Source: Marsupella aquatica (taxonomy: Eukaryota; Plantae; Marchantiophyta). From it: a stretch of DNA of 64,000 bases. How positions within the stretch are numbered: the stretch's first letter is position 1; each line of letters begins with the position of its first letter. The stretch is from positions 15,010,816-15,074,815 of the forward strand of contig OZ316895.1 of NCBI GenBank assembly GCA_973895155.1, read 5' to 3'. The position numbers were made by a program, and so were the translations under genes. Shown piece by piece: positions 33,560 to 64,000 of the stretch. A model generated the notes under the pieces. The model had not been told where the DNA came from and did not search any database. It was given only the letters and a program-made list of their open reading frames with translations.

Positions 33560-33819
33560 ATAGATAAACAACTAAACATCGCAATTTGGAATGTATCTGG
33601 CATTTGTGACCCAAACCATAAATATATAATACGGAAGTGGATTCATGATCTGAAATACACAATGCACGTCCTCACCCTCCTTGAAATTAAAGCAAATGAC
33701 TTCAGTCTGATATCTGCTCTAAAACTATAATTGCTCACCTAGTAATAGGAAAGGGTGGAGCAACTATGTTAATTCACCCCTCTATTTGGATAAAACCATC
33801 AGGTATTTCACCCATCTAA
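33560..33819 (+). pseudogene. L1-type LINE APE endonuclease N-terminal fragment (degraded)
   Basis: Hand translation gives DKQLNIAIWNVSGICDPNHKYIIRKWI...HVLTLLEIKANDF, then after a frameshift IGKGGATMLIHPS. These fit the APE motifs WNVxG, LxE.K and GG.A.L. Confidence 0.7.
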
Positions 33820-33899
33820 TCAACATCTTACATATTCTTTCATGATTACCTAGTCTGAGTTTGTTTTCTTGATGCCGATACCATAAGAAATATTTCACA

Positions 33900-36800
33900 T
33901 CATTCTATAAAATGATAAAAGATAGTCATGGTAATTACTGGGTAATTATACACCTTAGTAGTTTTTTATATTCTCATGAATAGAGTGAACCATGGTTCGC
34001 AGTTGCTATGTTTTTGTAAGAGGTCGATCAAAGTATATGAAGAGTCTAGGGTTTTGGGTCAATCACGTACATAGTACTTATTGAACTCAATGGTAACAAC
34101 TTGCCAACTATAAGCTGTGAGGCCAACTCAACTCTGACAATTAGACAAGATTGAGGACACAAAGTTTGTTCCAAAAACTAAGACAAAAGTGTATGCCCTT
34201 GGGTATATTGATTCAAAGAAAAAATAACAACTATGTATCTTAGGAACAGAGGTTAACCTTGATTTTGATTGAATGTCCACATAAAAAATGGTGACACCTA
34301 CACATTGGGTGATTGTCGGTGAAACTGTTGGTTTGTGCATATCAAATAAAGTGGTTGCAAAGGGTATCATTCAAAGTGTGGATCCATCTCGGATTTGCCA
34401 TAATGTTCCTCTTGGGCCCCTTCAAGTTCTTGTTACTTTGGAAGAAGTATTTGATGCGGAAATTCAATGGGGTCATGGTGAAAGCTTGGCTGATATGATA
34501 GGATCCTTTTTAGTCTGGAAAAAAGGTCAACTTCAACAACTTGAAATGGGTACTAGTGAAGACCTACCTGATACCCCATGCAAGAATGGAGCTTCAATGG
34601 TCAATGGAAGTGAAACTAGCCAACCGGAGACCTCAAACGAGAACGAAGTTCAAGGAAACCTACCGGAGCGGTCAAACAAGAATGGAGTTGAATCTAGTGG
34701 AAATCCTCTTCGAATTTCATCCACAAGTTTATGGATGGGAATGGTTGTGAAAGTACTTGATGAAACACATTTTGCCTTTGCCATTGCAAGAGTAATGGCT
34801 GTTAATCCAGAAGTGACATGATTGGGAGATATTACTCTTCAAAATACACATGTAGGAATCTTGATTGATGAATATATTCAAGGTGCAACTGAGGACCACC
34901 TGAAACATAGAGATTGTTTGAGGGCATGGCCGTTGGATAGGCTTGTCACAAGTAACGGAAGGCTATTAGCCTCATTTTTTGTAGATGCAGAGGAGGATGA
35001 TCTAGACGCTACAAGTTGAAAGAGATCATATGTACCAATAACCAGAAAAAGAAAACAACCTTCTATTTCTTTGTCAAAGAAAGACAAGTCCCTTTCCGAA
35101 GAAGATGGGGGGAAATCAAAAGACAGAAATGTTGTCTTCGACGGTGCTGCCATCTTCTAGACCCTCATGTGGCAAAGGAGATTAGGGAGAAATATTGGGA
35201 AAAATCATTTGAGATGCGAAGGGAGTATGAGATCAATGCTATTGTCAATATATTGGAACTATTAAATACTGAAAAACTGATCATCATCGAAGGGAAAGCA
35301 ATATGCTTGGAAGCATGGAGGATTTTGCACTCCAAAGGGCGAAGTCAATTCTACGAGCTCAGAAAGGCTGTGGGTAATGGGGTGAGGATAGCTTATCATG
35401 GAAACCAGGGAAAGAGACGGATGACTGAACGAGTTTCTCAAGCCTACATGTCATTGCATGGGTTGATTGATGAGTGCGCAGATCTTCATCCGGCAAAAAT
35501 GAGGACGGTTGCAGACAAATCTCGACAAGTTCTGAAGGAGCTCCCTACAAGTTATACTTGGGAAAGTATTAGAAACAAGCTCAATGCTACAAATTTAGAA
35601 CTTGGTCTTCAACCAATCTCCCAATCCACATTGAGTATTTTACATCAAAAGTATTTCAAGGAAGTGACAATTCATAAGAAAGGCAATAACTTTTCCAAGT
35701 GTACAACTTGTAGTGAGTTGATGCAACGGAAAGCAAATCTGATGGGTGTGAAAGAAGAGATTGAGATTTTAAAGAGGGATGAAATTGCTCATCATCGTGA
35801 TCATACCGAGGGCAGATTATTATATCACTCTTGGAGACGCCAGTCAGCGGATAATCCAAAACAGGTTTTATGCATAATTCATGATAAAATGGATCATTGT
35901 AAGACTGCATTACCAAGGATGCCTTTTTGTCCAAAAGAAGTGGATGGTGCGATTAAACTTCCGATTACCTTGACTGGTATTTTGACTCATGGCCATAGTC
36001 CAAAGGCTATTGCTCAATATAATGTTGGAGTGTGGGCACCTGATGCCAATGCCACAATTGGTTCACTTGACACAATACTTCGAATGCTGGAAAATCCAGA
36101 ACCAATGATCAAATCTTTAGTGGAAGGGCCAGATTCTACAAAGCTATTTGAAAACTTGCTTGAAGGGAGAGGACCTATATTGGAGGGAAAACTTCGTGAA
36201 GCATTTAAGGATGACATATCAGATCTAGGTAATTATTTCACCATAATGATACAAGAAATTTTGTTGCTTTTGTGCCATATTCAGTATCAAACATGTTTCC
36301 ATTGTAAGTGATGTAACCTTTCATGGTGGCAACCAGGGTTCATTGTTAGTTGTTGTAAAGATTGTTAAATTGTTTGCTCATGTGAGAGTCATTTGCTTAG
36401 GTTAGTAATTTTCTTGATTGTTTTTTATGTGTCTGAGAAGTGCAAACCATGGTTCGTTCACCTTTTAGTTTATTTCAAAATATGAAACATGCATTGTTAA
36501 TTGTTAGTTTATTTGAGAGCACAAACCATGGTTCATTGTTAGCTTATTTGATAGTGCGACCTATGCATGGTTGTCGTTAGTTCATGCAAAAATGAGAATC
36601 ATGGCTTGAACCTTTAGTTTATTTCAAACTATAAACAATAATTTAAATATAGTTCATTCAAGTTTATGTTCATAAATTGTCGACCATGATTGTACATTCT
36701 TGGTAAGTTGTTTTATATGAGATAATATTTAGGCTCTAAATTAATTATTGACCCTAATATATGTGTTTCTTAAATTTGTGCAGCAAATTCACAATCATTG

Positions 36801-38569
36801 GATGCGTCTACTATGTTCAAGCCTCTGCCAAGAGTTTTGAAGTTACAACTTGACAATTGTGCAGGAGATAACAAAAACAGATATGTGTTGGGTTATTTGT
36901 CACTACTAACAGCACGAGATGTTTTTGAAGAGATTCATTTGGGATTTCTCATGGTTGGACATACTCATGAGGACGTTGATGCCATCTTTCGCCATTTCTT
37001 TGAAAGTTTGATGCGAAACCCAACCTATTCTTTGGCAGATCTAATGTCATTGTTAATGGGGGCAAGGACTCCAAATCCAGTGCCCCATTTTGTGCAAGAG
37101 GTACCTGATTTTAAATCATACTTGGAACCTTACTTGCTTAAAGGAGGGGACTCATTGGTGGGGCATTTGCAACCGCGGCTATTTCGATTGTATGTGCGTG
37201 ATGATGGTATGCCATGCCTTCAATACAAAATGAAATGCCAAGATGATGATTGGCTCCCAAGAGAAGGTATTGAGATGTGGTCATGGACAGATAATAATAG
37301 TCCAAAACTTCCCATAGGAGAACCAAAGAGATTACCAATGATAGAGATGGCCATGTTAGAGGAGGTGCGACAAGGACTACACAAGCAAGTGAAATTTTTT
37401 AATTTTGTTTGCAATCGAACTGCATCGGAAGAAGGAAAGGGTAGATGGGTGGCACTGATACAATACTGGAATCAAATTATCCATACGTTGGAGACAGAGG
37501 CAGTGCAATATAGATCTGGAGAGGAACACTTGGTTCATGGATTTTGGCCCATGTCAAAGTGGAGAGATGGTGTTCCTTTGCAATACCGCAATGTGGCATG
37601 TGAGTTGGATGCAAAGATTGGGTACGTGGGGCCAAGGAAAAACAAACCTCGTGAAACTTTTAACCCAAGGGCTGATATTGTGAAAGGTAATTATATATTG
37701 GTTCGACCAGACACAGCTGACCTAGACATTTACCCAGTCTATTTGGGCAAAGTGATTAGTGATGTGGAAGAAGGAGAATTGAATGTCAACAATCAACTTG
37801 AACATGTGTGTATTGTGGAGTGGCATAGACCTTACATGCTACAAAAACGTGGTCAACCAGAATATGAACCACGACAGCGGTGGTTAGATTGCTGGAATCA
37901 ACAATGGGAACGCGATCCGGGGTATTCCACTGAGACGATAAGTGTGAACACTGTACTATGGTGTTTCAAGGCACGGACCACAGCCAAAAGTGGTTTAGTT
38001 AGAATAGCAAAAAGTCATGCAATGAAAGCAAAAGACAATTTGAATAGATGCTTAGAGGATGAGGCAACATCAACTTCATGATACTTAGATAGTGTAGTTT
38101 ACTTAAATGATAAGTGATTGTAAATCATCAATGTTATTTGGTTTATTTGACAGATTGAAAAGACCAGAGTGGTTCTTTAATAAAAGTATTGTCTTCATTG
38201 ATCACAAGAAAGGAACCTGAGCATTGAATGGTTTCCATATGTGGATGTTTATTTATGATGGACCATGGATTATGCATTTCACTCTTACTAGTAAATTTAT
38301 GCACATTAAATAATGTGATTGTACACTCCTTGTAACAGTTCATTCATTATTGGACCATGGATTGCACATCTTTCATTGTAATTGTGCACATGATAATAAT
38401 CCAAGTTATGACATTCTATACCAAAATTATATTTTTTTGGTACATGTGAGTGTTAGCTTAGTAATTTAATTGATTTATTTTGATTAAATATAATTTAATT
38501 AAAATTTCAATCATTCCAAAATTGCACTAATTGTCCAGTTTTATCTAAATAGGGGTTATGGTACGCATG
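33900..38569 (+). mobile_element. Large decayed DNA transposon A (transposase-bearing; left end unresolved)
   Basis: Contains the Sola-type transposase, AACCATGGTT palindromes (33988, 36445, 36524), and an AT-rich tract ending in tccagttttatctaaataggggtt that is shared with element B. Confidence 0.6.
34288..38081 (+). pseudogene. Sola-superfamily (Sola1/DUF7869-like) DDD transposase, intron-containing, disrupted near the 5' end
   Basis: Exons 34288-36228 and 36784-38081 join in phase (GT-AG, 555-nt intron). Catalytic-type motifs CIIHDKMD, LQLDNCAGDNKN and FLMVGHTHEDVD; Cys/His motifs CCLRRCC and FSKCTTC..H..H. Two N-terminal repeats resemble the Tnp1/En-Spm-like domain (VAKGIIQSVDP..HNVPLG). 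In-frame TGA stops at 34819 and 35017 and a frameshift near the G-run at ~35107. Confidence 0.8.
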
Positions 38570-38601
38570 GTTTTATCTAAATAGGGGTTATGGTACGCAT
38601 G
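38538..38601. repeat. Exact 32-bp tandem duplication at the element A / LINE junction
   Basis: gttttatctaaataggggttatggtacgcatg at 38538-38569 and 38570-38601. Confidence 0.95.
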
Positions 38602-45330: not shown

Positions 45331-47173
45331 TGTGGAGTCATAACCTTATTGACCCTTAATTACAATCTTGATCTAGGACTAATTTAGTCTTACTCTAAGG
45401 AGGTGCCAAAAAAACTGGATCTCAACTTTCAAAATTAAGGAATGAGTAATTATTATTCTCAACATTGGGAGATAAGAAATATATATATAGAGGCAAAGAT
45501 GGTTTAGGAATATGGATAGGAATGTTTAGACCTTAAGGTTGACACAAAATTATGGGCAGAACATTGTGCAGTGCCAAGGAACAATTAATTAAATAATAAA
45601 TATTGGTACAGTACTTGGTTTGTTTTACTGTACACCTCCCTTTATTTGTAGTTCATACCTGATTTATGACTTTTAAACCATTCTCTGGTGTAACCATTGT
45701 AGCAATAAACTACAAATTGATCACTATGTTTAAAACCCTAATATACTAGAAAGTTGTGTTGAAATTGAGGTTAGGTAATACCTTGGTTCTTTAGCTTACC
45801 ATAGACAATATCAGTCAAGAGAAGGGACTCTTCTTTTGGTTGAAATGATATCATTTCCAAAAACTTCATTTTGTTTTTAAGAAAGGGTGTAACATAGTCA
45901 AAGAACGGACATGTCAAATTTCTATGTGTCCACATATCCTTATGTAATTTGATCATGTAAAGTACAAACATAATAAAAATTGAAATGATTACCTAAAGTA
46001 AATGATTTTCTACCTGTGGGGATTAGGAGCAGTCTAGGGATAGGGGACCGGTGTTTTAGGGCTGGACTTTTTTACTCCCTCCAAATTGACCCTGCGGCCG
46101 CCTGGTCAGTACTGTCCTGTATACTATTGACCGTCATAGCTGAAAGCTCTTGCTCGTGCTATGTTTGTGGAAGCAGCATTTTTGTTCGAGCAGCAAATGT
46201 GGAAAGAACCAGGACTGATGAATGTGTAAGGGAGAACCGAAGAGAGTTATTGTGCACTACGGATTTGTGGTGTTGCATTCTGCTTGCGGACCGGGCAGGA
46301 TCTAGGGGTGGCCAGACAGAGGTGGCACTGTCGTTTGGATCATTATCTAAGTACGTACGCAAGCTGACCACTCTGTTGAGCTGAGATATGATTTGAGCTC
46401 ACAAGCTTCTGGCCAGTTTCCGAGCAATGTATTTGACGGAGTTCCCTGTATCAGGTATGTTTCATTCAAATGCGCTCTCTCTTGGGCCCTAGGGATGTAA
46501 GTTTGTCCCGAGTTTGTTTGGATACACTTCATTGGAAAGTTGCGTGTTGAACAGTAGGATTCAAAATGCTTCCGGGAATGCTTCAATCACAAAACAGAGT
46601 TTTTCTCAATGAGGTGTAGCACAAGGATCGAGGTACTCTTAATATGGCCAAAGGTTTGTCTCAGACCGTAGAGCGCTGCATTCATTCTTCCACAGAATCA
46701 CGCCCCTAAGAGAACTTTAGCCAGTCGGCTGGGAGGCCCTGTTGCAGCCACTGAAAGTCAACTCCTTGCGCAATCCCCTCCTCACTTTGCAATCGGCAGG
46801 GCTAAAGCGCAATAAACAACACTAACCCACATGAATGTGAGGCGTACAGAGAGAAGCAGCAGCAACAGCACCATGCCACCACCCGGCGCCGAGGGCCACA
46901 ACCAAACTTGCAAGCAAATAGTAGAGCAGAGCAGAGCTTAGTGGAGTGGCGCGAGAGACTTAGTGTATAATTATACCAACGACAGTAAGGACTGGCAACA
47001 ATTACATAAGTCCCTAGCATGCAAACGGATCTCATATCACAAAATAATCCGTCTTGATCACTGCAGGTAGTACGCGGTCAAGCAGGGCGCATGATCCATC
47101 ATCCTCGAGAGCATTAAATTAAACAAGCAACCAAGAGTGAGCAATCCTTTGCTTTGAATCCTTTCCTCCCTCC

Positions 47174-48001: not shown

Positions 48002-50779
48002 AATTGTTTGTTCCTCCCCTGGGCTGGCCGTGAAATGCATTTCTTAACGCTTTGTTGCAGCTCATAAGTTGGTACCTTTTGGCTGCAGATCGGTTGATTG
48101 AAGGAAACCCTTTCTATCCAGCAATGGTTTCCTTGAACCTACTCGCAATGTTGCCGTGAGCAAGGGTTGGATCCTGGTAAATTTATCTGACGTTGCTGCA
48201 TTGAATAGTGTAGCAGGCCGAGGTCTAGATTGAACCACTAGAGAAAAGGTTCGAGAGATTTCAAAGAGTTGCGTTCTTGCTGCTGTTGCCTTCAGTACTG
48301 CTATTGCCTTTACATGATACCATTAATACTACATGGAGTCATTGTGCCAAGCTCCTAGAATAATTCTCAGCTACTTGATTGTAGGAACAATCAAAAATGG
48401 CTTTTGGACGAGTGAAGGTGATTTTTGGGAGTGAGCTATCCAGCTGTGCCAGGCCGGAGTGATCTTTCCCAAATTTTCCAAGGCTCGGGAGGGACATCTT
48501 CAAAGAAGGTATTGATTTCCAAATTGATTCACTTGTTTGAGATGCAGGTAACGAGATTACGTCTATGCATGTTACTAGAAGCAATTGATTAGTCCTGCCA
48601 TCAAGTCTTTGAGGTCAAAGTAAGAGCTCCAATACTAGTTAAGCATAGAGTATTCAGTTAATATGTGGGAATAAAGAAATTGCGAAAGGCAGCAGCTTGT
48701 GTGATAATCGTGAGTCTATTGCCATTCCTGTTGCAAGCTTGCCTTCACCCTGTAACTGGGCATGAATGTCATCTCCGTTCCATTTCCATGAGATCAAAGA
48801 ATGTTGTTGAGCCCCTGTCCTTGGCTTGTTGAATGTTCTTGCTGTGAGAGTAACGCTATATCACTTACTGAATATTGGCAAGGCACTGGACCTGTTACTA
48901 GCAACGTAGCTACATGGTAGATCAAGGGCTTAGTTTGAGGTGAATTAGAAACTGATTGGATCAATTAGTTTGGCCCTTCCAAGATTGAATTTGGTGAGTA
49001 AGGGTCGGGAATGTATTGCCATGATTGAGTAGAGTGGGGAGGTCGGGACGGCTACCTGTGTCACAGCATGAACTCATGTTTCTTCCTTGCACGTCTTGTT
49101 TCTTCCATGAAATTGTTTGCAGCCTCTTTGGTAGCTAACGGGGACGCTGTTTGAAAGAGAGAAATATTATATTTGTAAGAAGAAGGCTACAGACTTTAGG
49201 GCCGGTGATTACACAAGAAGTCCATGGTGGGGTGATGATGCACTCCAGGTAATTTTATCCCATCCTCAACAATTTTGACAACCAAGCCTGGAGTACCTTC
49301 ATTCATCGTCTCCAGTTTTCATTTGGTCTACAAGTCTCACATGTTTTCAGATTGTCTTTTGCTTTCCTCAAAACTAGTTTTTCTTTAGCTTAGTGTTCCT
49401 TTGTCAGCTCCGCTCTTGCTGTTTGTGCGTATTATGTGGATTAATTTGTTTGCTGATCGACCATGCCTGTCAGTATTGAATCTTGTTCCCGTAACTCTGC
49501 GAGCTCAGTAAGCGTTTTAATACTCTAGTTTTGGTTTGGCTGACTCCTTTTTGTGGTGTAGTATGCTGTGTGAAGGCATGGAACGCCAGGAAATACTCTC
49601 ACATGCTATGTGAAGGCCAGGACTATTCTCACTCACCTGGTAAGTGCTGCTACCCCATAGAGGCCACGTACTAGCATCTACTTATGAGATTGAAAGTTTA
49701 TAGATCCATTATACTGTTGGACATCTTCAAGTCTTGATCGCTATTTTGGAGGCTTTGTTAATTATAAACTTGTTGATGATATGGCATATCTGTATCTCTT
49801 TGAGTTTGCTACTTGGTCACAATGATATTTGTACAAAGCAGGGTACACAGTGGAACTAGCGACTATCTCCACCTCATCTATAAATTTGTTCTGAGTGAAC
49901 ACATGTTGTCGCATGACCTGAAATGAAACTAAGAATGATCACGTAGAAGCCAGTCCGAATATCTTGCTACGTACGTTTTCACCCGTGTTTTCAATGTGAC
50001 AATGAACGAATGATCTTGTCTTGCTTTCTCCTCTTCGCATCTCATCAAGACAACTAAAAGTGTCACCTCATTCAATCATGATCGACATGGTTGCAACCTG
50101 CCTCCAATCTCCTTAGTCCAGAGTGTGCTAAAGATTTTGTAGCAGGATTTGTCCAGTTGTGCTTGACTATTCCTAAAGGCCATCTTATGTTTATTAAGGG
50201 TAACCAAAGCCTAACTCAATGTAATCACAACTAATTAAATTAAAACATTTGGAGGATCCTAATATCCCCTTGTTCCCACAATCATAACTCAAATGAATCC
50301 ATATATGAGTCCGTCCAATCATTAAGTTGTTCTTACGTGTACACCTTATCAAAGAGTACTATCCCTGAGGCCGTCTAGCTACTTTGTCACTATGGACAGT
50401 CCATTTCCTGAACCTATTCCATGTTCTGGAGTCCCAATACAATCACTCCATACAATCACTCGACTGTCATTCTAGCAAGTCCCACTTAAAAAAATCGATT
50501 GCATTTTATCCCTACTAGCTGGAACCATTATTTGCAAATAAGTTGTCTATCACGTCTTGTCCCATTGGCCCCTTTGTGGTAAATTAACCCATTTAGCCAT
50601 TACATCTGTTCAAACCCGGTTCATTTATCCATTGCTGCATGAACCATGGTTCGTGAAGCAATATTAGACTCCGGCCACTACCATTGCCCCAAACTGGACC
50701 CGATTATCCATGGTTGGCACATTATTATGCCACCATTCCCAAATCTGGCCCAATGTATCCTACATGGTATGAACCATGG

Positions 50780-51355
50780 TTTGCTCTATGAAGAAGTGTA
50801 AGACTCCCATGAGTTCTCATAGCTCCCAACTAAGCTTGACTATCTGTCTTTGTTTTAGCCCGCCATTTTTTGGAAAATGGATTTCTATTTGCAATTTCAG
50901 CACGAACCATGGTTCGTTGTATAATAGAGTCTGTGACTTCCACTCTCACAAGTCTCAACTAGGCTTAACTATCCCCTTTTGTCCTACTTTTAGCTAGTCA
51001 TTTTTTGGCAAATGGATTTCCATTTGCAATTTCAGCACGAACCATGGTTCGTTCTATGAAATAGTCTGTGATTCCCACTCTCACAGGTCTCAATTATAAT
51101 TTCAGCTTGAACCATGGTAGACCAATAGGCCATGCATGGCTTGAACCATGGTCTCAATTATAATTTCAGCTTGAACCAATAGGCCATGCATGTCCACCTA
51201 GTCCATATCTTACCCTAAAGAAACCATGGTTATACTATACATGAATTGAAATCACCTCTTACACCACGAACCATGGGTTGTACTATACATGAATTGAAAT
51301 CACCTCTTACAGCACGAACCATGGGTTGTACTATACATGAATTGAAATCATCTCT
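50780..51355. repeat. Subterminal tandem repeats of element B (~135-bp units and a 48-bp unit x ~3)
   Basis: aatggatttcYatttgcaatttcagcacgaaccatggttcgtt at ~50876 and ~51011. tactatacatgaattgaaatca starts at 51233, 51281 and 51329 (48-bp period). Units carry AACCATGG. Confidence 0.9.
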
Positions 51356-51855
51356 CAATTCTAGTCTAAGATATGAGCCAGCACTATCATTTGAGTGATT
51401 CAACTTTGTTATGTTTTCAATGACATGAACCATGTAGAGTCGTTTCTCTGAAGTTGATCTTAACCATGTAGAGTCCTCTCTAAACTTAATCTTTCTAGTC
51501 AAGTTTGTCAAACCCTGTTGTCCTATCGAATTGGTTTTCCTGTAGTACTGAGAATAAATACTAGTCACAACCCTGGCCAAAACTAATTGTCATTGCACGA
51601 ACCATGGTTTGCACTATCCAAAGTCGTCTTTGATTTTTTAAGATTTTAGAGCTTGTGGCATGAACCATGGTTTGTTCTAAAATTTGCCAAGATCCAAGGA
51701 ACTATTTATTGTGCCTAGACTTTGCTTCTAAAAAACATTGAACCCTAAGTCTTTAACCTTAAACATTTTTGACACATTTTTTGATAGTATACTTATCACA
51801 TTTGTTGTTGTTGTTGTGTAGCTCGCGCAAACTTGTGTTTGACAACTACACAAGC

Positions 51856-54800
51856 ATGGCATCCGAAGGAGAAACTAGCAAGAAGAAACGGAAGACCTTA
51901 GGAAAAACTGATGGGAGCACCCCAAAAAAGAAAGCCAGAGTGAAGAAGAGTGCCCCGAGTTTGGATTCCATCAGCAATTTTTGTGGGAGAAAAATGACCT
52001 TGAAATCTACAGTAACTGATACTGTTCTTCGAGTTGATCCAAAAGATATGAAGCACTGGGGGGTGGTGCTTGATAACAATGTTCTCCGTATGTGCATAGC
52101 TTTTGAAGAGGAGACTTTGGTATTGTCCAGCTCTAGGATACTTAGTTGTGTCTATGAGAAAAATGTAAACCTGAAAGATTGTCAAGAAGCTTTGGTACTT
52201 TTGGTTGAGGAGAATACAGGCATTGAAGAATCAGAAAATACCAGGATCTGCTATTGTTTCTCTAGAGAAGTGTTCAGGATGTTTGATCAGACATACATGG
52301 AGGCGAATTGCAGTTTCTCACTAGAGGCATTTTCAGCCATTTGGGATCCCACTTTCCCAAAAGTTTCTACACTCATAAATGGCCAGAACATTGAGAGGTA
52401 TGTGCTATGCATATTGTCCTGGGCAAATTGCACTTTTGCAGAAACATTTCGTGTAGGGAAGAAGGAGGACCTTGAGAAGCATTCCAAATTTGAGACTGGA
52501 GAACTTCCCAAATTGATCACTGGAGAAAACATAGGAGATCTTTGCAAGAGTTTCAATGGTGCTTATAAGAAAGCAAACATCTTTGACAGCAGAGTTTTCA
52601 ATGTTGAAAATTCAAAATGTCACATTGCACCCAATGTTGTAAAATGTAGAGGTCATGATCCTGATTACCCACGAGATCTTGCCAATTTGATGAAATTTCA
52701 ATCGTTGGTAAATTTTGAGAAACGAGTTTGTTTCCTCATCCCTGTGTTATGGGCAGAGAGCAGGAGCACTGAAGTTGGCTATTGTGGAACTCCATTGACA
52801 CAGCCACCTATCCTTGATCAAATTGACAATTATCATTTTTGGATAATTGGAGGCCAGCACACCGTTATGGCCTACCGGTTACTTTTGAAAGATGAATCAG
52901 TGGCTCTTGAGATTCATCAAAAATGTTTTACAATTGATGCAGTCATGTTTTGGGCACCATACAATTTGGCTAGCAACTTGGTGATGATGGGATTATCTAA
53001 GACATTAAATCATGTTCATCACACAGCAATGGATGAATCTCAGTTTTTCCTCATTGCAAGGCAAGTTAGGGATATTTGGAAAAGTTATGGGCGTCTTCCT
53101 TCAGAGACAAACAGCATAAGACTCAAAATGGAGGGTAAGAATACAAATCTCTATTCTTGTTTAACTTCTGCTCATTCATTTTGATGCATAGATTATGAAA
53201 TTAAATTAGTGTGAACCATGGTTTGTACTCATCTTATGATTTTATTGTGATTGTCTAAACAACATTTCATGAAAGCAGCAATGATCGTCATTCCTTGGGC
53301 CAAAGATGAGAAGTACCGATTGGGAGAGCTTGGACCTTTCATCTTGAATATGACAGATTCCACCCTCAACTTATGGATGAAAGTATACGAGATGTCAAGA
53401 GAAGGAAAATTGGTGGCTTTCAACGGGTTCCTACAGAAGGATGTTATCAAGAAAGATTCTGTTCGAGGAGCTTGGGAGGTTGCCCGAAGAACATTTCGAG
53501 ATTTTCTTGGAGTTGAGGATGAAGTGTTGATGAAGATTGCAAGGAACTTCTTGCCAACAAGAAGATTTCGTTGATGAAAGAACGAAGTAGCGGAATTGTG
53601 AAGAAAATAGATGCAGTTCCCATTGAAGAAGATTTCATTGCTCTTGATGAGTATTGTGTTAAAAAAAACACAATAAGCAGTTTGAAATATTGCTTTTGAA
53701 GTATCTTGCAAAAGACAAAATGACTAGGGAGAAGTTACAGGCATTGCCCATGGAGCAGAGAAGGGAGAAGGTGAATGCAATGAGAGATTTCTTTAAGCTT
53801 ACTCCCGAAAAAGCTGAAAAGCTTCGAAGTACACTTGGACCTATAGTGATCCCAAGATCGCTAACGAAAACCACTAGAAACAAAGAGCTCCAAGATCTTC
53901 TTCCTGGAGTTTTCAAGAGTCTGATCTGGTCAATCAGGGCTTCTGTGGATGAAAAAGGTAATCCGATGGTGATGCAACTTGATACAAAACTTAGGTTTTG
54001 TTCAAGTAAAGGATTTGGAACTGCTGAATTTTTTGATCCAATCGTCTTGGAGTTGAAAGAAATGTCATCATTCATATTCTTTGATGCTACCATGATGTCT
54101 GGAGTAAGTTCAATGACACGAAAGACATATGAAGCATTCTTTGATGCTACAATTATCATTGGGTCAAAACCATCTCATGTTGTGGTAGTGGTATCAACTG
54201 CAATCAATGCTTTTTTTGTGATGAGTGCTATTTCAGCACACCCACATTATGTTGCATTTACCACACAGTACCAGACAAAATCTAAATCGTCATCTTCAGC
54301 ATCGACAGTTTATCATTCAAATTGTCTTTTTGTGACTTATGCATTCTTCAAGGTGTCATTCACTGAAGAATGTGAAGCAGAAGAAATTTCGACAAAAATT
54401 CTGTTAAGCTTTAAGAAAATAGGATTCTTGGGGAATTACGAAGAGACAACAGAAGATGTTGCAGAGCAGACTCAACTTGGGGAGAAGAGCAGAATATTCT
54501 ACGATAACTTGACTTCTCAACTTGTTTCATTTGACAAGCTTTCAGTTTGTTTTGGAGATGGCCAACATCTTACTGACTCACTTTTGTTATGTGTTTCTAA
54601 ACCCAAAACCTTAGAAAGTCTATTAAATTTCTGATTATATTCTAATCCCAAGCAAATATTAAAACTTTGATTGTTTTGCAGAAATTAGGAGCCCGGGTAC
54701 GTTCATATTGTAATGAGTCCAACCACGAAAGCCTGACACAGTTCTTTTCTTCCACAACCCAATCTGATGAGCCTGAAGAAGCACCGTGTGAGCTACGGAG

Positions 54801-57215
54801 TATTTTGGTGAAAAATATTTCCAGATTGATGAAGTATAATTTGGCCAAGAAGAACACGAGAGAAGACATTGTTGGGCTTTGCAAAGATACCCTCCACCTT
54901 GGTGAAAGTAGTATTGCTCGTGTGATCAAAGAATATGGATTGGATGACACTCCTGAGTCAGATGATGAAGTCTACAAATTTCCTGTTGATGTACCAACTG
55001 GTCCACTTGGAGGTTAATATATTAACCATACTTTTTGATAAACTAAATTTTTGAGTAACTTCAGATAAATTTTGAATCAATAAGTTCTCAAATAAATTAT
55101 ATATATGATTTAAGGTAGAGTGATTGATTTATAAGAATAGCTACGCACGAACCATGGTTTGAACAAGTTAAACTTATGAAATTAGATAAGTTGAACTTGT
55201 GGAGTTAGATATTTAAATTGCATCAATCATGGCTCTAAGTATGCAAGTTAGTTGAACTTGTGGAGTTAGATATTTAAAATGCATCAATCATGGTTCTAAG
55301 TATGCAAGTTAGAGATAGACTCATTCATATAGAGTAGAACAACTCATGATTTGAACTTGTAAAATGAATCTATTAATTCATTTAATTTATTTGTTTTGTG
55401 GAACTTGAAAAATGAGACATAATATAGTGTGAACCATGGTTTACACTTGTCATATATACATGTAGTCATCAAAGATAAACAAAACAACTTGATGTCTGAA
55501 GAATGACCATTGATAATTAAAAGTCAATCCATTCATCACATTTATTTATAGTTCTTTGTTTTGGTTGATTTATTTTGGTTGCAGGAGAAAGTGATCTTGT
55601 TGAGGATGAGGACGAAGATGACAACATTGATCCACCAAATGATTCACAACCATTAAATCTGGATAACATGGAATCACAAGATGATTCAATGAAAATTCCT
55701 GACTCGTTCAGGGCTTTCCAAACCAAACCAGAGTTCAATGTTGAACAAGAGGCAGTTTCAATGGCCAAAGAACAAGACTCTACGGTCTCAACTCTAGACC
55801 CAAACAATGTTAAAAATATACAATCAGATTGTAGCCTTGTTAGGGTGCAAGAATCAAAACAAAAAATTACATATGATGAAACCAAAAATACAAATGAGCG
55901 AAGAATGATTGTCCGGAAATGTATGTGGGAAAATTACATTCCTGATCAGGAAACTAGTCGACCCGGTCATATTTCTAAAGCTGATTGGGATGAGTTTTTT
56001 CAAAGCGAAGCTCAATTCCATGGGTGGAAAGCAAAAGCATATTGGGCTGAAGCTTTGACTCGTCGCTCCGGTTTGGAAACCCCTGAACAAATCATTAATT
56101 TACAAGACAATATCTACTATGCATCAGAAGTATGTGAAATGGTTGGAGACCCTCCTATCCATGATTTTGCCATTCAAAGTGAACCTGAAAGCACTATTCA
56201 TGAGTGGACTTGGATGAAGCAGTATCAACTAACCTCTAGTAACTCTATCTCTACCTCTATAGAGACAGTGCCCGTGTCCAACCTTGACACACCAAATACA
56301 TGTGCAATCAACAATTCTACGGTGGAGCAGATGGATTCATTAGTGATCAAAACTAACATTTTGGACAGGTCTACCATAACAACAGAGCCAAGAAGCATTG
56401 AAAATGGTCCAGCGGTGGATAAGATGGATCCTTCAAAAGTTGAACCTAATATTTCAATGGACAACGGCATATTTAAGCGATTGCACAACATGACGATGGG
56501 GAGGCCGGTTTTTGCACAACATTTGGAGCCAAGAAATGTTGACACCAACCTAGCAGTGGAGCAGATAGATCATTTTTTGGATGTGCCTTTCACATCAATA
56601 GAGGCAAGAAACGGTGACAATAGTCAAGTGGTGGAGCACAATAGTCAAGTGGTGGAACAGATGGATCCTTTTGAAACTAACATCTTGCACCTGCCTTCCA
56701 CTTTGACAGAATCAAGAAATGCTCATTTACATGTGGATCCGGTAATGGTGTCTCACACATCGTTGGATTCTATAAAAAATGGTGGTGATCCTAGAATGAT
56801 AAGCAATTATAAAGTAATGGAGCCTCTAAGGGGTGGGAGTAGTATTTTAGAGGAGCCTAAGATTGTTTCACCAAACAAAGAAAGTCATCCTAGGATGTTC
56901 ATTGATACTTTGCCAGAATCAAATGTGAAAGAAATTGTAGATTGGGAAGAGGAGGCATCTACTGCAGCCTACGCTGATGGATTGAATGAATTGCCACCTC
57001 CTTTTTTGGGCATCCCATTAGTTTCAGCTTCTTCTCATGGAGATTGTTCACAAACAACTACTGCAACAAAAATAGTGCTTCCTAAGGCTGATTCCAAGGT
57101 GAATCCAGTTCGGGCCACTCGGCGGGATTCAAAGCAATCTTCAGTGATAGAGGCGGTTACTATACCGCCAAAGGTGAAGAAGATACCTCAACAGATTTTG
57201 CGAAACAAGAAGTAA
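51856..57215 (+). pseudogene. TE-borne multi-exon gene: NLS + ParB/Srx-like region + degenerate beta-class DNA amino-methyltransferase-like region + acidic low-complexity region (two frameshifts)
   Basis: Phase-compatible exons 51856-53134, 53276(or 53279)-54592, 54682-55012 and 55585-57173/57215. N-terminal KKKRK..PKKKARVKK; HFWIIGGQHTVMAY (ParB/Srx-like) at ~52834-52875; SFIFFDATM..YEAFF..KPSHVVVV and EKSRIFYDNL..CFGDGQHLTDSLLLC|KLGARVRSYCNE follow beta-class MTase motif order. Single-base frameshifts near 53540 and in the A8 run at 53661. Confidence 0.6.
55189..55311. repeat. ~61-bp tandem duplication in an intron of element B
   Basis: agttgaacttgtggagttagatatttaaaWtgcatcaatcatggYtctaagtatgcaagttag occurs twice. 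Confidence 0.85.
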
Positions 57216-57504
57216 TGATTTTAGGGACCTTTTGTTTAGTTATTTAGGTCCACTTTGAATCCAAATTAGCAAATTTGCTCATTCTAGATGTGAATTGTGT
57301 ACTTTTGTTAAGTTCAACTCTTTCAACTGAAGTAAATGTTGAATGTTCAAAGCGTTGTTACCTATTAATGTGTTTTAAAGCTATATATAACGTACCCCAT
57401 TATTACACACATGGAATTTATTTACAGAACGAACCATGGTGCATGGTTAACTTTAATATTATATACACTTGGGTACTATTATAAATCTTGTGTTGTGTAC
57501 ATGT

Positions 57505-57556
57505 TCAGGGTTTAGGGTTTAGATTCCATGTTTAGGGTTTAGGGTTTAGGGTGTAG
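57505..57556 (+). repeat. Interstitial plant telomere-type (TTTAGGG)n tract
   Basis: ttcagggtttagggtttag-attccatg-tttagggtttagggtttagggtgtag. Confidence 0.85.
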
Positions 57557-57677
57557 ATTCCATGTTTATTTTGGACTAACTAACACATTTATTTGTAGAA
57601 TGAATCATGGTGGGTAGTTAATTTATGACATATGTTTGGGTACTATTCTAAATCTCATTTGTTTGTATTGTGTACAG

Positions 57678-58226
57678 GTGAGAGTTGAAAATTTATTCAG
57701 GAAATTACTTGTCATAAGTATCAACAAGTTCCTCATTTACACAACTGGGGTCTCTCGCCATTTGAAGAAGACATCATCTTTCCGAGTGTATAACAAAATG
57801 GTCTTCCCAAGACCATATGTGCAAGAATTTCTTGAATTTTGCACTTCAACTTTTGATGTGGTTCTTTGGGCACTCACTGACGAATGCAAACTGGCTGATC
57901 AAATGGATCCAATACTCACAGATAAAGCTTTGAGTTTTTCTGGTCTTAAGTTTCTTACATCAACTCTGATGGACATGAAACAGATCAATGATATTTATCC
58001 ACAATATCAAAGACAAAATGTTATATTTTTAGAGTGTTATCCATCATTTGATAGCGTAAATCCAACATATTCAAGGCTATATCCCAAGTCATATTATGGT
58101 AATTGCAAAGACAATTTTCTTAGAGGCACACTTATTCCATATTTACGTAAATTAGAAGATTCTGATCAGACAGCACGTAGTTTCATTAAACATAATTATC
58201 CTACTTGGTCTGTAAACGACCAATGA
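57678..58226 (+). CDS. FCP1/NIF (HAD-like CTD phosphatase) homology domain, catalytically degenerate; probably the last exon of the element B gene
   Basis: Acceptor tgtacag|GTG. KLLVISINKFL sits where KLLVLDxxGxL is expected; VFPRPYVQEFLEFCTSTFDVVLW; NVIFLECYP..VNP..P.SY.G..DNFL..L.PYL follows the FCP1-homology C-terminal pattern. Confidence 0.7.
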   Translation: MRVENLFRKLLVISINKFLIYTTGVSRHLKKTSSFRVYNKMVFPRPYVQEFLEFCTSTFDVVLWALTDECKLADQMDPILTDKALSFSGLKFLTSTLMDMKQINDIYPQYQRQNVIFLECYPSFDSVNPTYSRLYPKSYYGNCKDNFLRGTLIPYLRKLEDSDQTARSFIKHNYPTWSVNDQ

Positions 58227-59984
58227 ACCACAGCTTGTGTGGTGCATGTAGTATTTAGAATATATTCAATTGTATTTTTTGGATCATAATAAAGGTGACC
58301 TTATCCAAGTGAATGATTGATATTTATGAATGATTTTGATTGTGATGTTTTGCCATATGTTTACTCATCGAGCAAAAATTCTAGTGTTGACATTCATTTT
58401 CGGAGCATGTATTAATATACTTGTATTCCAATTTTCTTCAAGAATGTTATTTATAATGGACAGCAAAACCCCAAAGAATTAGAACGCAAACAACACAACT
58501 ATCCATGAACAAGTGGAACAATTCTCACCAAGAAAACTAGGGGTAAATATTGATTTTCATACTTAGAGTATTGTTCTTGTTAGCGGACTATAATAATTTT
58601 GCCCTTGCAAAGCTAAAGGATATTTTAATTTGCAAAACATTTTTACATAATCCTATTTTCCTTAGAATGTCGCTCTTGTGTTAAGGAGGGTTTTGACTTA
58701 TTTTATTATAAAGGAACATTGTTAAGAAATCATATTTTCCAGAGAGCATTGTTCTTGTCACAAAGAGTGCTTCAAGTAAGTTTTTCCATTGCGAAGCTCC
58801 AAGAAATCATGTTTTTCAATCAAGCTTGAAGCATTGCTCTTGTGATAATATGCACTTCGAATACTTTGTCGTTGTAAAAGTACTGAAAATTTCAAATACA
58901 CTGTTAAATGTAAACTTTCACTCCATTCTATGCATGTTTTCAATTCACTTTTATGTGCATAATCTTTAAAGGTAACTGAAATGTAGGTAAACAGTCAGTA
59001 AGAATTATTATCTAGAATATCTCATTGTTAAGTGGAAACTGCTCAGTTTATGTGTCACATTCCATGGAGATGATGACAACTTCCATTCCATCCAAGCTTT
59101 GGTTTTGTACAAACCATGGTTTACTGTATGTTTAGACACTTAAATTGGTTTATTTGGTGTAAATTGCCACTAGTCACATGTGATTAAACTTGGATCCATA
59201 GGAATGACCTATAATAGTAGTATTTTGCCGATGTTATGAAACATACTATACTTTCAAACTAGAGGAAAAGAGTTAGTGGAATGGGAAAAAAGGAAGTCTT
59301 AGACACTTCCCCCTTGCATATAGTGTTTTAAAATAATAATTAATTAATTATTAAATTAGTTAAATAAATTAGTAATAACTTTATCAAACTTCATTTAAGC
59401 ATTTCTGGAATTGAATATTCCACTTTTATCTAAATAGGGGTTTATAGTAGGATTATAAGCGTCTAATGACTTCGCAGTTCGAACCCGACTTTGTTAGCAT
59501 CTTTCTGAATCACTGCCTGGAGGAAATTGGATATTTGCAAGAGATTATAATATGACAGAGAAATCATTTACTCGGTTGCAGAGCATTCAGCATGACTCTC
59601 AGGATCAGATTTGATAGCCTGGTGTCACCTTAAAAATAGATTTGATTTATATGACGCATATATTATTGTTGCAATTATAGTGTGGATCTCGTTTCACATG
59701 GAGACACACGTAGCACAGTAATGTATATACTTCAATCTTGTTTAGACTTAATATATATAAGTAACAGCGGCATGGATGAATAAAATAATATCCCTATCGC
59801 ATCACCATGGCCGCCCTTTTTCAGATAACTGTCCGGTGTCTTTATAATCATGTATTATAAGTGAGAAAATAGATGATAACATAGAGGTAAAATAATGTAC
59901 ATACTTTAAATCTAACAATTGGATATACTAATAGCTGGATATCTCAACTGGCATAGATGATCTGAAACTAGTATTTAGTATAGC

Positions 59985-61035: not shown

Positions 61036-62285
61036 AAAGCCACCCCTACAGGAGATATGCTCTAAGTGAAGTGTGGGCATTGAAATCCTGTTTCGTCTTT
61101 CATGGTCCCGAAAATATGACAGAATGGCACACTAAAGGAACCCCTCCCCGAGCGACACATTGCAGGTCGCTGTTCGCTCTCCTCCATTCCACTTGTCACC
61201 GTAGAAGCCCGCCACGTTGCATCCCGGGTGGCAATCAGTCAAGACAGAGCCCCCTTGCCTCGTCATAACTCATGCCTCTCAGTTATGTTTCGTAACAGTG
61301 AAAATTAATTCAGCATTGAGGTGTCCTCAGCCCGTCGATCTCTCGAATCGACGGCCTCAGTAGGCAGCTCGATTCATAATCTCTTCCCGCCAAGCGGTAA
61401 GTGACATAATTAGCATTAGAATTAATCTAAGTTAATCAGATGGCATAATACGAAATTGCCGGTGTACATCGAGTGACAGGGGAACAGAATAGTTATCATG
61501 CAGAGACAGAGCGAGAGAGAGAGAGAGAGACAGAATGATGAAGGAACCGAGAATTCGAACATTGAACGAATGGAGTTCGAGGGAAAGACTGAAACTTATG
61601 GCTCGATTCAAGTCTTGCTCTGCACTCCAAGATTGTCATGCGGGCTGAAGTACTTAGAATCGCATTTCGTGATCCTGTAGCTCCAGCTCACCAAATGGGA
61701 GTGTGGATTTGAGGAGATCGTCTCTGTTCTCCTCTCCTCTCCTCAGCTCAGCTCTTTCTCGCCTCGATTGGCGGCGGCATTGGGGTGTGAGGTATCTGCG
61801 CTTGCTTCCTTTCGTCAGGAGTCTACTGGAGTATCAACTCCGTTGTCATTTCAGATCTGAGCTTTCTTTGAATCGATAGGTTGAGAGGGCGAAACTTCGT
61901 TGTGAGTATTGTAGATTGCATCGCAGGATGGTGAAATTGTTCTGGCCGTGATTTGTGTATGTCATCTTCAATAGCTGGCTGTCGTCACTCTGTTTGGGAC
62001 TCCACATTCTCGTTTGGTTTGTAAAAGGAGTGAATGTGCGCTCTGTCATTGTGCGGGTAATCACGCCCGCACAATGCAGAGTTTCTTGTGGGTATTCGGG
62101 TTTGTGTCTTCGCAAAGGAAGAGTTCTAGTTTGTGAAGCATCGAGAAACTCGATGCGTATGAGGTGGACAATAATTTTAATTCCAGTCTAATGGAATGAA
62201 TGGGTGGCTGGTCTCTTCTCTGTGTGCTCTATGTAGAGCATTAGATCGGCAAGTACTCTTGGAAGAGCTCACGGAAACGGCAGTG

Positions 62286-63867
62286 ATGGCTGCGGACAAG
62301 AAGACTGCAGCATCGGGCTCGGCCGCGCTCTTGGCGAAGCAAATGATAGCGGGCGCCTCGGCTGGCACCCTGGCCGACGCCATTATGTTCCCCATGATGA
62401 CCGTAAAATCGCGCCTCCAGGTATTAGTCTTTGCAATTATCTTGTGAGACCACCTGTGTGAGCTGCCTTCCGTTGTTTTTTCTATCGGCCAATCTCTTCT
62501 GGTGATTCATGTGCACAGATAAGGCGATTTTCGCAGAAGTTCAGAGTTTGCTATACAGGGATTTAGGTGTGCTGAATGCCATCTTAACAACAGCACTGCT
62601 CCACATCTTGAAGATTGCTGTGGCATGTAGCTTCGTAGTGTTTTTCGAGTAAGCTCAAACTTCCTTTCTTTTCGAATGGGTTAGACTCACAAGACGCACT
62701 GTGCTCATGATGCTTTCATGTCGCTTCGTAATGGGTTGGGAGTTGCCCAGGTTCAAGGTGGGGGAGGAGGTTATTCGTATAAAGGGCCTGTGGATGCAAT
62801 CTCTAGTATAGCTGCCAAGGAAGGTTGGAGAACTCTCTACAAAGGCTTTGGAACAATTTGCCTCATCGCACCTGCTCAAGCCCTCTACCTGGGCACTTAT
62901 CAAACTTCTAAGAAAGTATTGCCTGGTACGCCACGTCACTTTCTTCTAACGATCAAACGTCGAACCCTAAAGCTCGCATCTGGCGAGCTTCCCTGCCCCC
63001 CTGTAATGGGGTAATAGGGCTAGAATTGGTCCTCAAGCTTTTTTGACGGTTGCTGTCTCAAGCAACTTGATGTCTGGAATTGATCAGATTGGTTTGGTTT
63101 GATCAGGTGGACAAGATAATCCTCTCACCCAATTTTTTGGAGGAGCAATATCTACCTTTGTGCAATCTTCGGTAATGGTGCCCACCGAGGTCATTAGACA
63201 GCGACAGATGGTTCAGACTTCTCAGGAAGGCGCGTACACGGTCAGCAAAAATTGCCCAACTGTACTTTAGGAGCTATAGTAATTGGATTTTCGGGAGAAC
63301 CCTAAATTTGGGATTTTCGTGTGTTAACAGTTGTCTCCACTTGTCTCAATATTCTCACTGTTTAATTCAAACTCCATTATTTTGCCCGCATCGTCACCTT
63401 ACTGAACAGTTTGCCAGGCTTCCCTGGACACACATTTTTATATAAACGGATTGAGGACTGCAATTCAAGGATTACGCATTCTCTGTCACGAGCATCTGTT
63501 CACTTTATGCAGCGTTTGCAGCATTTTTGCTGTTTTGGCAATTTTTGAACAGGTCAATTATAATATATTTTTCAGCTCGTACTTCTTGAGTCATGACAAC
63601 AGGCTTTTCTGTTGTCCACAGGGTTCGTTACACGCAATAAGAACAATATATCAACATGAAGGAATTCGGGCTTTCTACCGTGGGTTTTTTCTGGCTCAAG
63701 TAGTCTGGGGACCATATAATGCAGTGTATCTACCACTCTGGGAGGGCCTTAAGAGAGCCTCTGTGAGGTTCTCTGGAGCTGAATCTATGCAAAAACTTGC
63801 AATTCAATATGAGCTCGGGAGTGCTTTCTGTGCGGCAGCTGTGGCTGCTGCTTTAACAAACCCAGCG
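62286..63867 (+). CDS. Mitochondrial carrier family (SLC25) protein, first four coding exons; continues beyond the window
   Basis: Exons 62286-62420, 62751-62925, 63107-63240 and 63622-63867 splice in phase (230 aa). Carrier repeats: AGASAG..FPMMTVKSRLQVQ..EGWRTLYKG; VPTEVIRQRQ..EGIRAFYRG; third repeat begins ..LTNPA. Probable 5'-UTR intron ~61792-62236 after a CT-rich leader. Confidence 0.92.
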
Positions 63868-64000
63868 GTACGTGAAGCTTGAGGTTCAATTTCGAACAGT
63901 TATTTCGTTTACATGTGTCTTTCACCCCCGTTTGTTATTTGGCTTTTGCACTGGAAATAAGGTCACGCGAGTTTAAGAAAGACAATCTGGGGCCTCAATC

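What the first reader, a model, noticed from the sequence alone, without database searches (positions are those of the whole stretch)
53990..54760. Degenerate prokaryote-type beta-class N4C/N6A DNA methyltransferase fold in a plant TE gene
Seen: SFIFFDATM, then helix KTYEAFFDAT, then KPSHVVVVV, YVAFTTQYQTK, CLFVTYAFFK and, across an in-phase intron (54593-54681), EKSRIFYDNLTSQLVSFDKLSVCFGDGQHLTDSLLLC|KLGARVRSYCNE. Established: beta-class amino-MTases run lifxDPPY..LKPxG..IxWxK..E.ilv.K..(E/Q)KP..L..lI....DxVlDxFxGsGtt..aa..LGR..iG.E, with catalytic motif IV before SAM motif I; N4-cytosine methylation by such enzymes has been reported in Marchantia sperm and in bdelloid rotifers. Inference: the same fold is present here, with DPPY changed to DATM and FxGxG eroded, so it is probably an inactive pseudo-enzyme or DNA reader. 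The match rests on motif order and spacing, with low identity.
Basis: partly seen in the sequence, partly recalled or inferred. Interest (0 to 1): 0.8.

Follow-up and report, generated by a model that had tools for sequence, protein, structure and literature searches.

The report
Disarmed bacterial methylase in plant transposon
A broken copy of a many-copied plant transposon gene encodes a domain predicted to fold like bacterial DNA amino-methyltransferases but lacking their catalytic motif in every relative examined, so it likely binds the transposon's own repeated palindrome instead of methylating DNA; similar genes are already reported on algal transposons.

Summary
The fold call is right. 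An AlphaFold2 model built from 17 family sequences (pLDDT 80, pTM 0.79) matches circularly permuted amino-methyltransferases: ranks 1-19 of 48,161 PDB chains, best CcrM (Z 13.4, 179 residues, rmsd 3.5). Sequence profiles alone are marginal. The catalytic (D/S/N)PP(Y/F) motif is absent in 14 of 14 family rows covering it and in 5 of 5 paralogous contigs, so its loss is old and family-wide. This copy is a pseudogene (three frameshifts). The domain lies in a four-exon gene with an unconfirmed ParB-like N-terminus, inside the accessory half of a multi-copy, probably Sola1-type DNA transposon, probably of a liverwort. Its partner half with a DUF7869 transposase lies 12 kb upstream and shares the right terminus and a palindrome, AACCATGGTT (14 of 14 exact copies inside the two halves, none in coding DNA). 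ParB-plus-methyltransferase transposon genes are published for Ectocarpus Sola1; I found no land-plant or catalytically dead version in print. No link to Marchantia DN4MT1 was shown. New variant of a known kind; moderate interest.

The parts
53975..54586 (+). Beta-class amino-methyltransferase-like domain, model residues 22-225 (its last strand and helix lie in the next exon)
   Evidence: AF2 model pLDDT 80, pTM 0.79; CcrM Z 13.4, rmsd 3.5, 179 aligned; Foldseek E 8.6e-7
54083..54094 (+). Remnant of catalytic motif IV: D-A-T-M in place of DPPY
   Evidence: aligned to DPPY by hhalign; Asp kept in 13 of 14 family rows, PP(Y/F) in 0 of 14
54548..54565 (+). Remnant of SAM-binding motif I: C-F-G-D-G-Q in place of D-P-F-x-G-x-G
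   Evidence: Phe kept in 9 of 9 de-duplicated rows, family pattern (C)F(G/S)(E/D/K)G
54587..54681 (+). Family intron (phase 0); its GT donor reads TT in this copy
54682..55012 (+). Exon 3: last strand of the fold (KLGARVRSYC; motif-II Glu appears replaced by Cys) and a helical/acidic stretch
   Evidence: exon end inferred from a phase-1 GT at 55013 that matches the acceptor at 55584
51856..53134 (+). Exon 1: basic N-terminus and conserved domain with ParB/Srx-like motif WIIGGQHT; one base lost near 53117 shifts the frame before the donor
   Evidence: 50% identity over 429 aa to P0001; phrog_1033 ParB-like E 0.053 at 52804-52893; not significant
53263..54586 (+). Exon 2: conserved linker region plus the methyltransferase-like domain; frameshifts near 53547 and 53660; probable acceptor at 53262 reads CAA
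   Evidence: tblastn of P0003 in frames +1, +3, +2; other copies carry one more base behind 53546
55585..57215 (+). Probable exon 4: long acidic, Ser/Thr-rich, partly repetitive tail
   Evidence: 548-aa open frame; no Pfam family; splicing inferred
57678..58226 (+). NIF/CTD-phosphatase-like ORF; first motif reads ISINK, without the usual Asp residues (motif recalled)
   Evidence: PF03031 E 1.8e-10; TIGR02251 E 1.7e-4
50619..59442 (+). Accessory half of the transposon; left end not found, multi-copy likeness starts near 50619
   Evidence: depth step and contig breaks in four runs; CpG o/e 0.36
59424..59442 (+). Right terminus TTTTATCTAAATAGGGGTT, shared with the transposase half
   Evidence: unique-flank contigs start at 59415-59417
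33777..38557 (+). Transposase half: DUF7869 transposase in pieces 34288-34821, 35001-36311, 36774-38081, with an imperfect inverted copy of the terminus at about 33776-33796 and the right terminus at 38539-38557 (repeated to 38589)
   Evidence: PF25273 E 1.3e-36; the upstream piece is fused to the transposase in relatives such as L080
50642..59121 (.). Eleven exact AACCATGGTT palindromes (up to 16 bp, ACGAACCATGGTTCGT) upstream of, in introns of and downstream of the gene; three more at 33988, 36445, 36524
   Evidence: 14 found, 0.19 expected, 0 of 100 shuffles; 0 of 14 exact and 0 of 22 one-mismatch element sites in coding DNA

Best explanation
The stretch is the methyltransferase-like domain of a transposon accessory protein: it is predicted to fold like a bacterial beta-class DNA amino-methyltransferase, lacks the catalytic motif in all relatives examined, and in intact copies likely acts as a sequence-specific DNA reader of the element's own palindrome, while this particular copy is a frameshifted pseudogene. 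Shown: the fold (model and fold searches), family-wide loss of DPPY, multi-copy status, shared terminus and palindromes with a DUF7869 transposase half, breakage of this copy. Inferred: descent from a prokaryote-type ParB plus methyltransferase gene like that of algal transposons; loss of methyl transfer with retention of the DNA-binding scaffold (as METTL14 is an inactive partner of the same fold, PMC4738411); binding of AACCATGGTT arrays in the element's non-coding DNA by a dimer; and a role in regulating or protecting the element against host 5mC silencing, in the manner of VANC proteins.
For: Fold; unpermuted methyltransferases reach Z 8.4 at most and mostly cover only model residues 22-150. 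Catalytic loss: 0 of 14 rows of alignment A3 that cover motif IV have PP(Y/F) (four of the 14 are near-duplicates), 0 of 26 stored family proteins hold such a motif anywhere, against 21 of 28 reference enzymes; 5 of 5 non-self contigs covering the site read FLDATM or FLDSTM. Selection on the fold: median 26% pairwise identity (54 pairs) with 36 columns at least 75% conserved, mostly core strands, in long open exon ORFs. Transposon context; CpG o/e 0.36-0.40 against 0.75-0.84 in flanking host genes. Palindromes. Precedents: PMC12477816, bioRxiv 2025.02.11.637652, PMC5735166.
Against: No binding, expression or activity data. The ParB-like assignment is not significant here (E 0.053; at least 15 of 100 shuffles scored higher). 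The motif-IV Asp (13 of 14) and a glycine-rich motif-I loop are conserved, which leaves room for SAM binding or an unusual chemistry. Palindrome arrays also lie upstream of related transposases on contigs where no such gene was seen (L077-L080, L082), so the transposase may be the binder. 0 of 80 transposase loci carried a family member (only 15 of 80 exceed 9 kb). No target-site duplication or left end was found for the accessory half.
Confidence: 0.58

Rival explanations
1. The domain is still an enzyme with a rewired active site: it binds SAM and methylates DNA (4mC or 6mA in the CCATGG core) or another substrate, marking the element as proposed for the Ectocarpus protein.
For: Asp of motif IV kept in 13 of 14 rows; Phe and two Gly of motif I kept; invariant Tyr, Glu and Phe elsewhere; the fold is intact.
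Against: The Pro-Pro and the aromatic residue that hold the flipped base in amino-methyltransferases (established knowledge) are absent in all rows and the three positions after Asp vary freely (AT, ST, CS, SS, GT, SM, FS, FT); motif-II Glu appears replaced in the one copy where it can be read.
Confidence: 0.14
2. The pseudo-methyltransferase is a structural or protein-binding module (dimer scaffold, partner of the transposase or of the phosphatase-like protein); the palindromes are bound by the ParB-like part or by the transposase.
For: Palindrome arrays occur beside related transposases without a visible accessory gene; Bostrychia PAG3 has inverted-repeat arrays next to a ParB-like protein without a methyltransferase domain.
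Against: The whole permuted fold, including the region between motifs VIII and X, is conserved over 16-62% identity; 11 of 14 palindromes surround this gene rather than the element ends.
Confidence: 0.22
3. The gene is captured, functionless cargo or a host gene copied by the transposon.
For: This copy is broken; transposon linkage was seen only in this window.
Against: Diverged homologues keep 400-460 aa open exon ORFs and the same intron position; other copies lack the frameshift at 53546; the same kind of gene sits on algal transposons.
Confidence: 0.06

Closest known systems
ParB-like plus N4C/N6A methyltransferase accessory protein of Ectocarpus Sola1-1_Ec32 (PMC12477816; passages and supplement rows read)
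   Same: DNA-transposon accessory gene; ParB-like part followed by an amino-methyltransferase domain; element ends in GGTT (theirs AACCG-CGGTT); proposed to bind its own element.
   Different: Land plant rather than brown alga; same strand as the transposase half rather than opposite; catalytic motif absent family-wide (the paper predicts an active enzyme and the passage read does not give its motif); about 1,500 aa predicted against 1,104; adjacent NIF-like ORF. The sequences were not compared.
Plavaka accessory genes PAG2 and PAG3 of Bostrychia (bioRxiv 2025.02.11.637652; passages read, supplements closed)
   Same: Transposon cargo with PF01555 methylase (PAG2) and a ParB-like protein beside arrays of inverted repeats (PAG3).
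   Different: There the two domains are in separate genes with SET and 2OG-oxygenase partners, on EnSpm/Plavaka elements; PAG2 is found by Pfam, this family is not.
Prokaryotic beta-class amino-methyltransferases (CcrM, M.MboIIA, M.BceJIV, M.RsrI, M1.HpyAVI, M.PvuII)
   Same: Permuted fold and motif order, Z 11.2-13.4 over 168-182 residues; motif IV to motif I spacing 156 aa, within the 137-227 of 11 references.
   Different: 5-10% identity; DPPY/SPPY and FxGxG degenerate; intron-containing, fused, on a transposon.
Marchantia DN4MT1a/b (bioRxiv 2021.02.12.428880; passages read) and bdelloid N4CMT (PMC8885841; passages read)
   Same: Eukaryotic beta-class fold; N4CMT structure matches at Z 11.5, rmsd 3.6, 173 aligned.
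   Different: Both are active host 4mC enzymes (DN4MT1 has TSPPY); this family has no such motif and no sequence link to them was found or could be tested.
VANC anti-silencing proteins of Arabidopsis VANDAL transposons (PMC5735166; abstract and section 8 read)
   Same: Functional analogy: an accessory protein and a short motif enriched in the element's non-coding DNA.
   Different: No structural relation shown; VANC binding and hypomethylation are demonstrated, here they are only inferred; the motif here is a palindrome.

Membership tests
Beta-class amino-methyltransferase fold | Rossmann-like seven-strand methyltransferase core | tested here: met
   (model lacks the strand encoded by exon 3)
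Beta-class amino-methyltransferase fold | Circular permutation: motif IV region before motif I region | tested here: met
   permuted enzymes align over residues 22-225; unpermuted ones mostly over 22-150
Active N4C/N6A DNA methyltransferase | Catalytic motif IV (D/S/N)PP(Y/F) | tested here: not met
   0 of 14 rows, 0 of 26 proteins, 0 of 5 paralogous contigs
Active N4C/N6A DNA methyltransferase | SAM-binding motif I DxFxGxG and motif II acidic residue | tested here: not met
   family reads (C)F(G/S)(E/D/K)G without the Asp; motif II readable in one copy only, Cys at the Glu position in the gapless register
Active N4C/N6A DNA methyltransferase | Match to PF01555 N6_N4_Mtase | tested here: not met
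   0 of 17 members; window ORF; FtsJ methyltransferase weakly in 2 of 17, best E 0.0023
Active N4C/N6A DNA methyltransferase | Methyl transfer to DNA | not testable with these tools
   needs biochemistry
MT-A70 family (METTL3/14, MTA1/9) | Closer to MT-A70 than to prokaryotic beta-class enzymes | tested here: inconclusive
   MT-A70 chains score Z 8.6-10.7, prokaryotic ones 10.0-13.4: favours prokaryote type; no tree possible at 5-10% identity
ParB plus methyltransferase transposon accessory proteins | N-terminal ParB/Srx-like domain | tested here: inconclusive
   motif WIIGGQHT conserved in 2 of 2 sequences; phrog_1033 E 0.053; not above shuffles; no Pfam or PDB hit; not folded
ParB plus methyltransferase transposon accessory proteins | C-terminal amino-methyltransferase domain in the same gene | tested here: met
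   P0007 (a Calypogeia fissa gene model) spans the end of exon 1 and exon 2; fold
ParB plus methyltransferase transposon accessory proteins | Location inside a DNA transposon | tested here: met
   multi-copy block with sharp right end shared with a DUF7869 transposase element
Sola1 superfamily | Terminal inverted repeats and 4-bp target-site duplication | tested here: inconclusive
   imperfect 18-19 bp inverted termini on the transposase half, ends in GGTT like Sola1-1_Ec32; no duplication found
Sola1 superfamily | Transposase groups with Sola1 transposases | not tested
   no named Sola sequence at hand; only the DUF7869 match; the Sola link is recalled and echoed by earlier AI notes
Marchantia DN4MT1 family | TSPPY motif and sequence relationship | tested here: not met
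   motif absent; DN4MT1 sequence not available for alignment

The most novel reading that the evidence does not exclude
Land-plant transposons carry a bacterial ParB-parS-like self-recognition system: a ParB-like clamp fused to a disarmed DNA methyltransferase loads at the element's own 10-16 bp palindromes and, with a phosphatase-like partner, shields or licenses its family against host 5mC silencing. Each family would have its own palindrome, making these programmable, methylase-derived DNA readers and a second plant anti-silencing system unrelated to VANC.
Probability: 0.25. Interest if true: 0.78.

Novelty: new variant of a known kind. Interest (0 to 1): 0.42.

Why it matters
How transposons escape host silencing is largely open; the Bostrychia preprint names VANDAL/VANC as the only case known to bind and modify its own sequence. 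This family offers a testable second case in land plants, with the candidate protein and the candidate site both in hand. It also shows a prokaryote-type amino-methyltransferase fold persisting in plants as a pseudo-enzyme that Pfam misses, so such genes should not be counted as sources of plant 4mC or 6mA. The value is limited because the gene type is published for algae, this copy is dead and the function is untested.

Tried and rejected
Single-sequence AF2 of 53960-54592 gave pLDDT 32 and was discarded. Pfam, NCBIfam, PHROGs, PADLOC and PDB sequence searches gave no amino-methyltransferase hit; a JetB match of P0013 (E 1.6e-4) and prion, NfrA and histone matches were rejected as chance. An HMM of 16 beta-class enzymes scored the spliced peptide at about 2 bits in a wrong register. 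A search for longer homologues (511-2000 aa) found none among 3,937 candidates, weak evidence. Pattern scans with the exon-1 alignment found no relatives in metagenome or viral contigs; the transposase found none in viral contigs; P0013 found no phage match. In 80 transposase loci no family member was found; one (L141) has a bacterial-type motif-I fragment in frame with the transposase on a 2.8-kb contig, which I treat as a probable chimera. No RNA holder was listed, so splicing and expression are untested. 32 of the 61 ORFs between the two halves were scanned and gave no Pfam family, so whether the halves are one interrupted element or two insertions stays open. No whole genome is held. The Cell 2025 version of the Marchantia paper is not held. 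A tree with DN4MT1 was not built: no sequence at hand and identity too low.

Full report
1. What is in the sequence. They belong to a larger gene: exon 1 at 51856-53134, exon 2 at about 53263-54586, exon 3 at 54682-55012 and a probable exon 4 at 55585-57215, about 1,500 residues in all (exon joins inferred; no RNA holder was listed). This copy is broken. Homologue P0003 aligns in three successive frames (shifts near 53547 and 53660); P0001 and other copies end exon 1 on DSKW(K/R), which lies in another frame here. The donor of the intron in question is mutated: 9 of 9 homologous ORFs that reach the exon end run off at the codon matching 54587, and contigs of other copies read GTATG where the window has TTATG.

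2. The fold. Sequence methods are marginal. PF01555 matches 0 of 17 family members. Structure settles it. HMMER over 1.84 billion representatives gave 13 relatives at 22-46% identity, a profile search three more. AlphaFold2 without templates on a 17-row alignment that holds no known methyltransferase gave pLDDT 80 and pTM 0.79; the single sequence gave 32. Against 48,161 PDB chains, ranks 1-19 are all circularly permuted amino-methyltransferases aligned over model residues 22-225: CcrM Z 13.4 (rmsd 3.5, 179 aligned), M.MboIIA 12.8, M.BceJIV 12.5, M.RsrI 11.6, rotifer N4CMT 11.5, M.PvuII 11.2, then the MT-A70 group at 8.6-10.1. Unpermuted methyltransferases reach 8.4 at most and mostly cover residues 22-150. 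Foldseek agrees (CcrM E 8.6e-7; phage N4/N6 methylases in the viral library; second look). The model lacks the strand encoded by exon 3; in sequence, the family junction puts that strand at the spacing of the 11 reference enzymes printed.

3. The active site. Of 14 alignment rows covering motif IV, 13 keep the Asp and none has PP(Y/F); the following residues vary. Four of the 14 are near-duplicates; after dropping them the Asp count is 10 of 11. None of 26 stored family proteins has such a motif anywhere, against 21 of 28 references. In public runs, 5 of 5 non-self contigs over the site, including the deepest, read FLDATM or FLDSTM (run X2 had none laid). Motif I reads (C)F(G/S)(E/D/K)G. The loss is thus shared across a family with median 26% identity, while core positions stay conserved: the pattern of a pseudo-enzyme under selection, not of one decaying copy. 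N4C or N6A ancestry cannot be told.

4. The setting. The only named relatives are two Calypogeia fissa gene models, so the window is probably from a liverwort. Four runs show much higher contig depth from about 50.6 or 51.6 kb to 59.44 kb than in the flanks (X1 about 140-180 over the coding exons against 20-32; X4 about 1,050-1,870 against 30-89), with contigs 85-90% alike; depth is not a copy number, but the step and contig breaks place a sharp right end near 59,442. The same terminal motif ends a second block, 33,777-38,557, which holds a DUF7869 transposase (E 1.3e-36) and an imperfect inverted copy of the motif on its left. The ends read GGTT, like the AACCG-CGGTT termini of Ectocarpus Sola1-1_Ec32; I found no target-site duplication, and the Sola1 label is not tested. 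All 14 exact AACCATGGTT palindromes of the window (0.19 expected) lie in these two blocks and none in their 8.3 kb of coding DNA. Both blocks are CpG-depleted (0.36-0.40 against 0.75-0.84), as expected after host methylation. A NIF-phosphatase-like ORF follows the gene. Exon 1 carries WIIGGQHT, where a ParB-like PHROG matches at E 0.053; my own ParB profile lands on the same motif but not above shuffles, so ParB is a lead, not a result. Against a fixed pairing: 0 of 80 related transposase loci held a family member, though only 15 exceed 9 kb, and several carry palindrome arrays of their own.

5. Mechanism. Most likely (0.58) the intact protein is an accessory factor that recognises its own element: a prokaryote-type ParB-methyltransferase fusion lost methyl transfer but kept the DNA-binding fold, binds the palindromes scattered through the element's non-coding DNA, and regulates or protects it. 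The fold, the motif loss, the context and the palindrome enrichment are shown; binding, the binder's identity and anti-silencing are inferred. Rivals: scaffold only, with ParB or transposase as the binder (0.22); unusual active enzyme (0.14); inert cargo (0.06).

6. What is known. [quoted passage not shown] The Bostrychia preprint (passages; supplements closed and may list more such genes) describes a PF01555 gene and a ParB-like gene with inverted-repeat arrays on Plavaka elements. PMC4738411 (passages) lists inactive amino-methyltransferase domains (METTL14, DIRS1 retrotransposons) and phage ParB-terminase loci as a source. VANC (PMC5735166, abstract and section 8) is the functional model. 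DN4MT1 (preprint passages) and N4CMT (PMC8885841 passages) share the fold but are active host enzymes. Ten literature searches showed no report of a land-plant or catalytically dead ParB-methyltransferase transposon protein; subscription papers, including the Cell version of the Marchantia work, were not searchable. Earlier unchecked notes of this scan describe the same kind of gene in this genome, in other plants and in animals; they pointed me to the Ectocarpus and VANC papers and are not independent support, but they suggest the kind is common.

7. Verdict. Real feature, correct fold, dead copy, new variant of a known kind. Interest 0.42; the ParB-parS-like anti-silencing reading has probability 0.25 and would deserve 0.78.

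Noticed in passing
window 57678-58226: NIF/CTD-phosphatase-like ORF inside the element whose first motif lacks the usual aspartates, possibly a second pseudo-enzyme; whether it is a separate gene or a further exon is unresolved.
   Followed up: partly
window 33777-38557 and 50619-59442: The two halves add up to 13.6 kb, close to the 13.1-kb element that an earlier unchecked note describes elsewhere in this genome; either two deletion derivatives or one element interrupted by 12 kb.
   Followed up: partly
window 38538-38601: The right terminus plus 12-14 flanking bases is duplicated in tandem (2 x 32 bp).
   Followed up: no
L080:640-1590; L077, L078, L079, L082 upstream of the transposase: Related transposase loci carry their own palindrome arrays (7 x CCATATGG in L080; a GCTCAAAC..GTTTGAGC-type inverted repeat in the others), suggesting family-specific sites.
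   Followed up: partly
L078, L080, L081, L083, L099, just after the transposase stop: A conserved hairpin of the type GGTGTTTATAAACACC follows the transposase gene in five relatives; not noticed in the window.
   Followed up: no
L141:2-241: Bacterial-type methyltransferase motif-I fragment in frame with a DUF7869 transposase; probable chimeric contig.
   Followed up: partly
window 42531-43819 (and 45194-45331): MITE-like element with about 200-bp imperfect inverted arms and internal repeats; a partial copy lies near 45.2 kb.
   Followed up: no
window 38916-39461 (-): LINE-like ORF fragment (appearance recalled; no Pfam hit at E 0.01) next to the transposase half, followed by 70-90 bp tandem repeats at 39.9-40.4 kb.
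   Followed up: no
window 26213-29599 (+) and 62181-63882 (+): Host genes flank the region: an AP2-domain transcription factor and a mitochondrial carrier (PF00153).
   Followed up: no
window 57505-57560: Short run of telomere-like TTTAGGG repeats inside the element, with high, variable depth in other copies.
   Followed up: no
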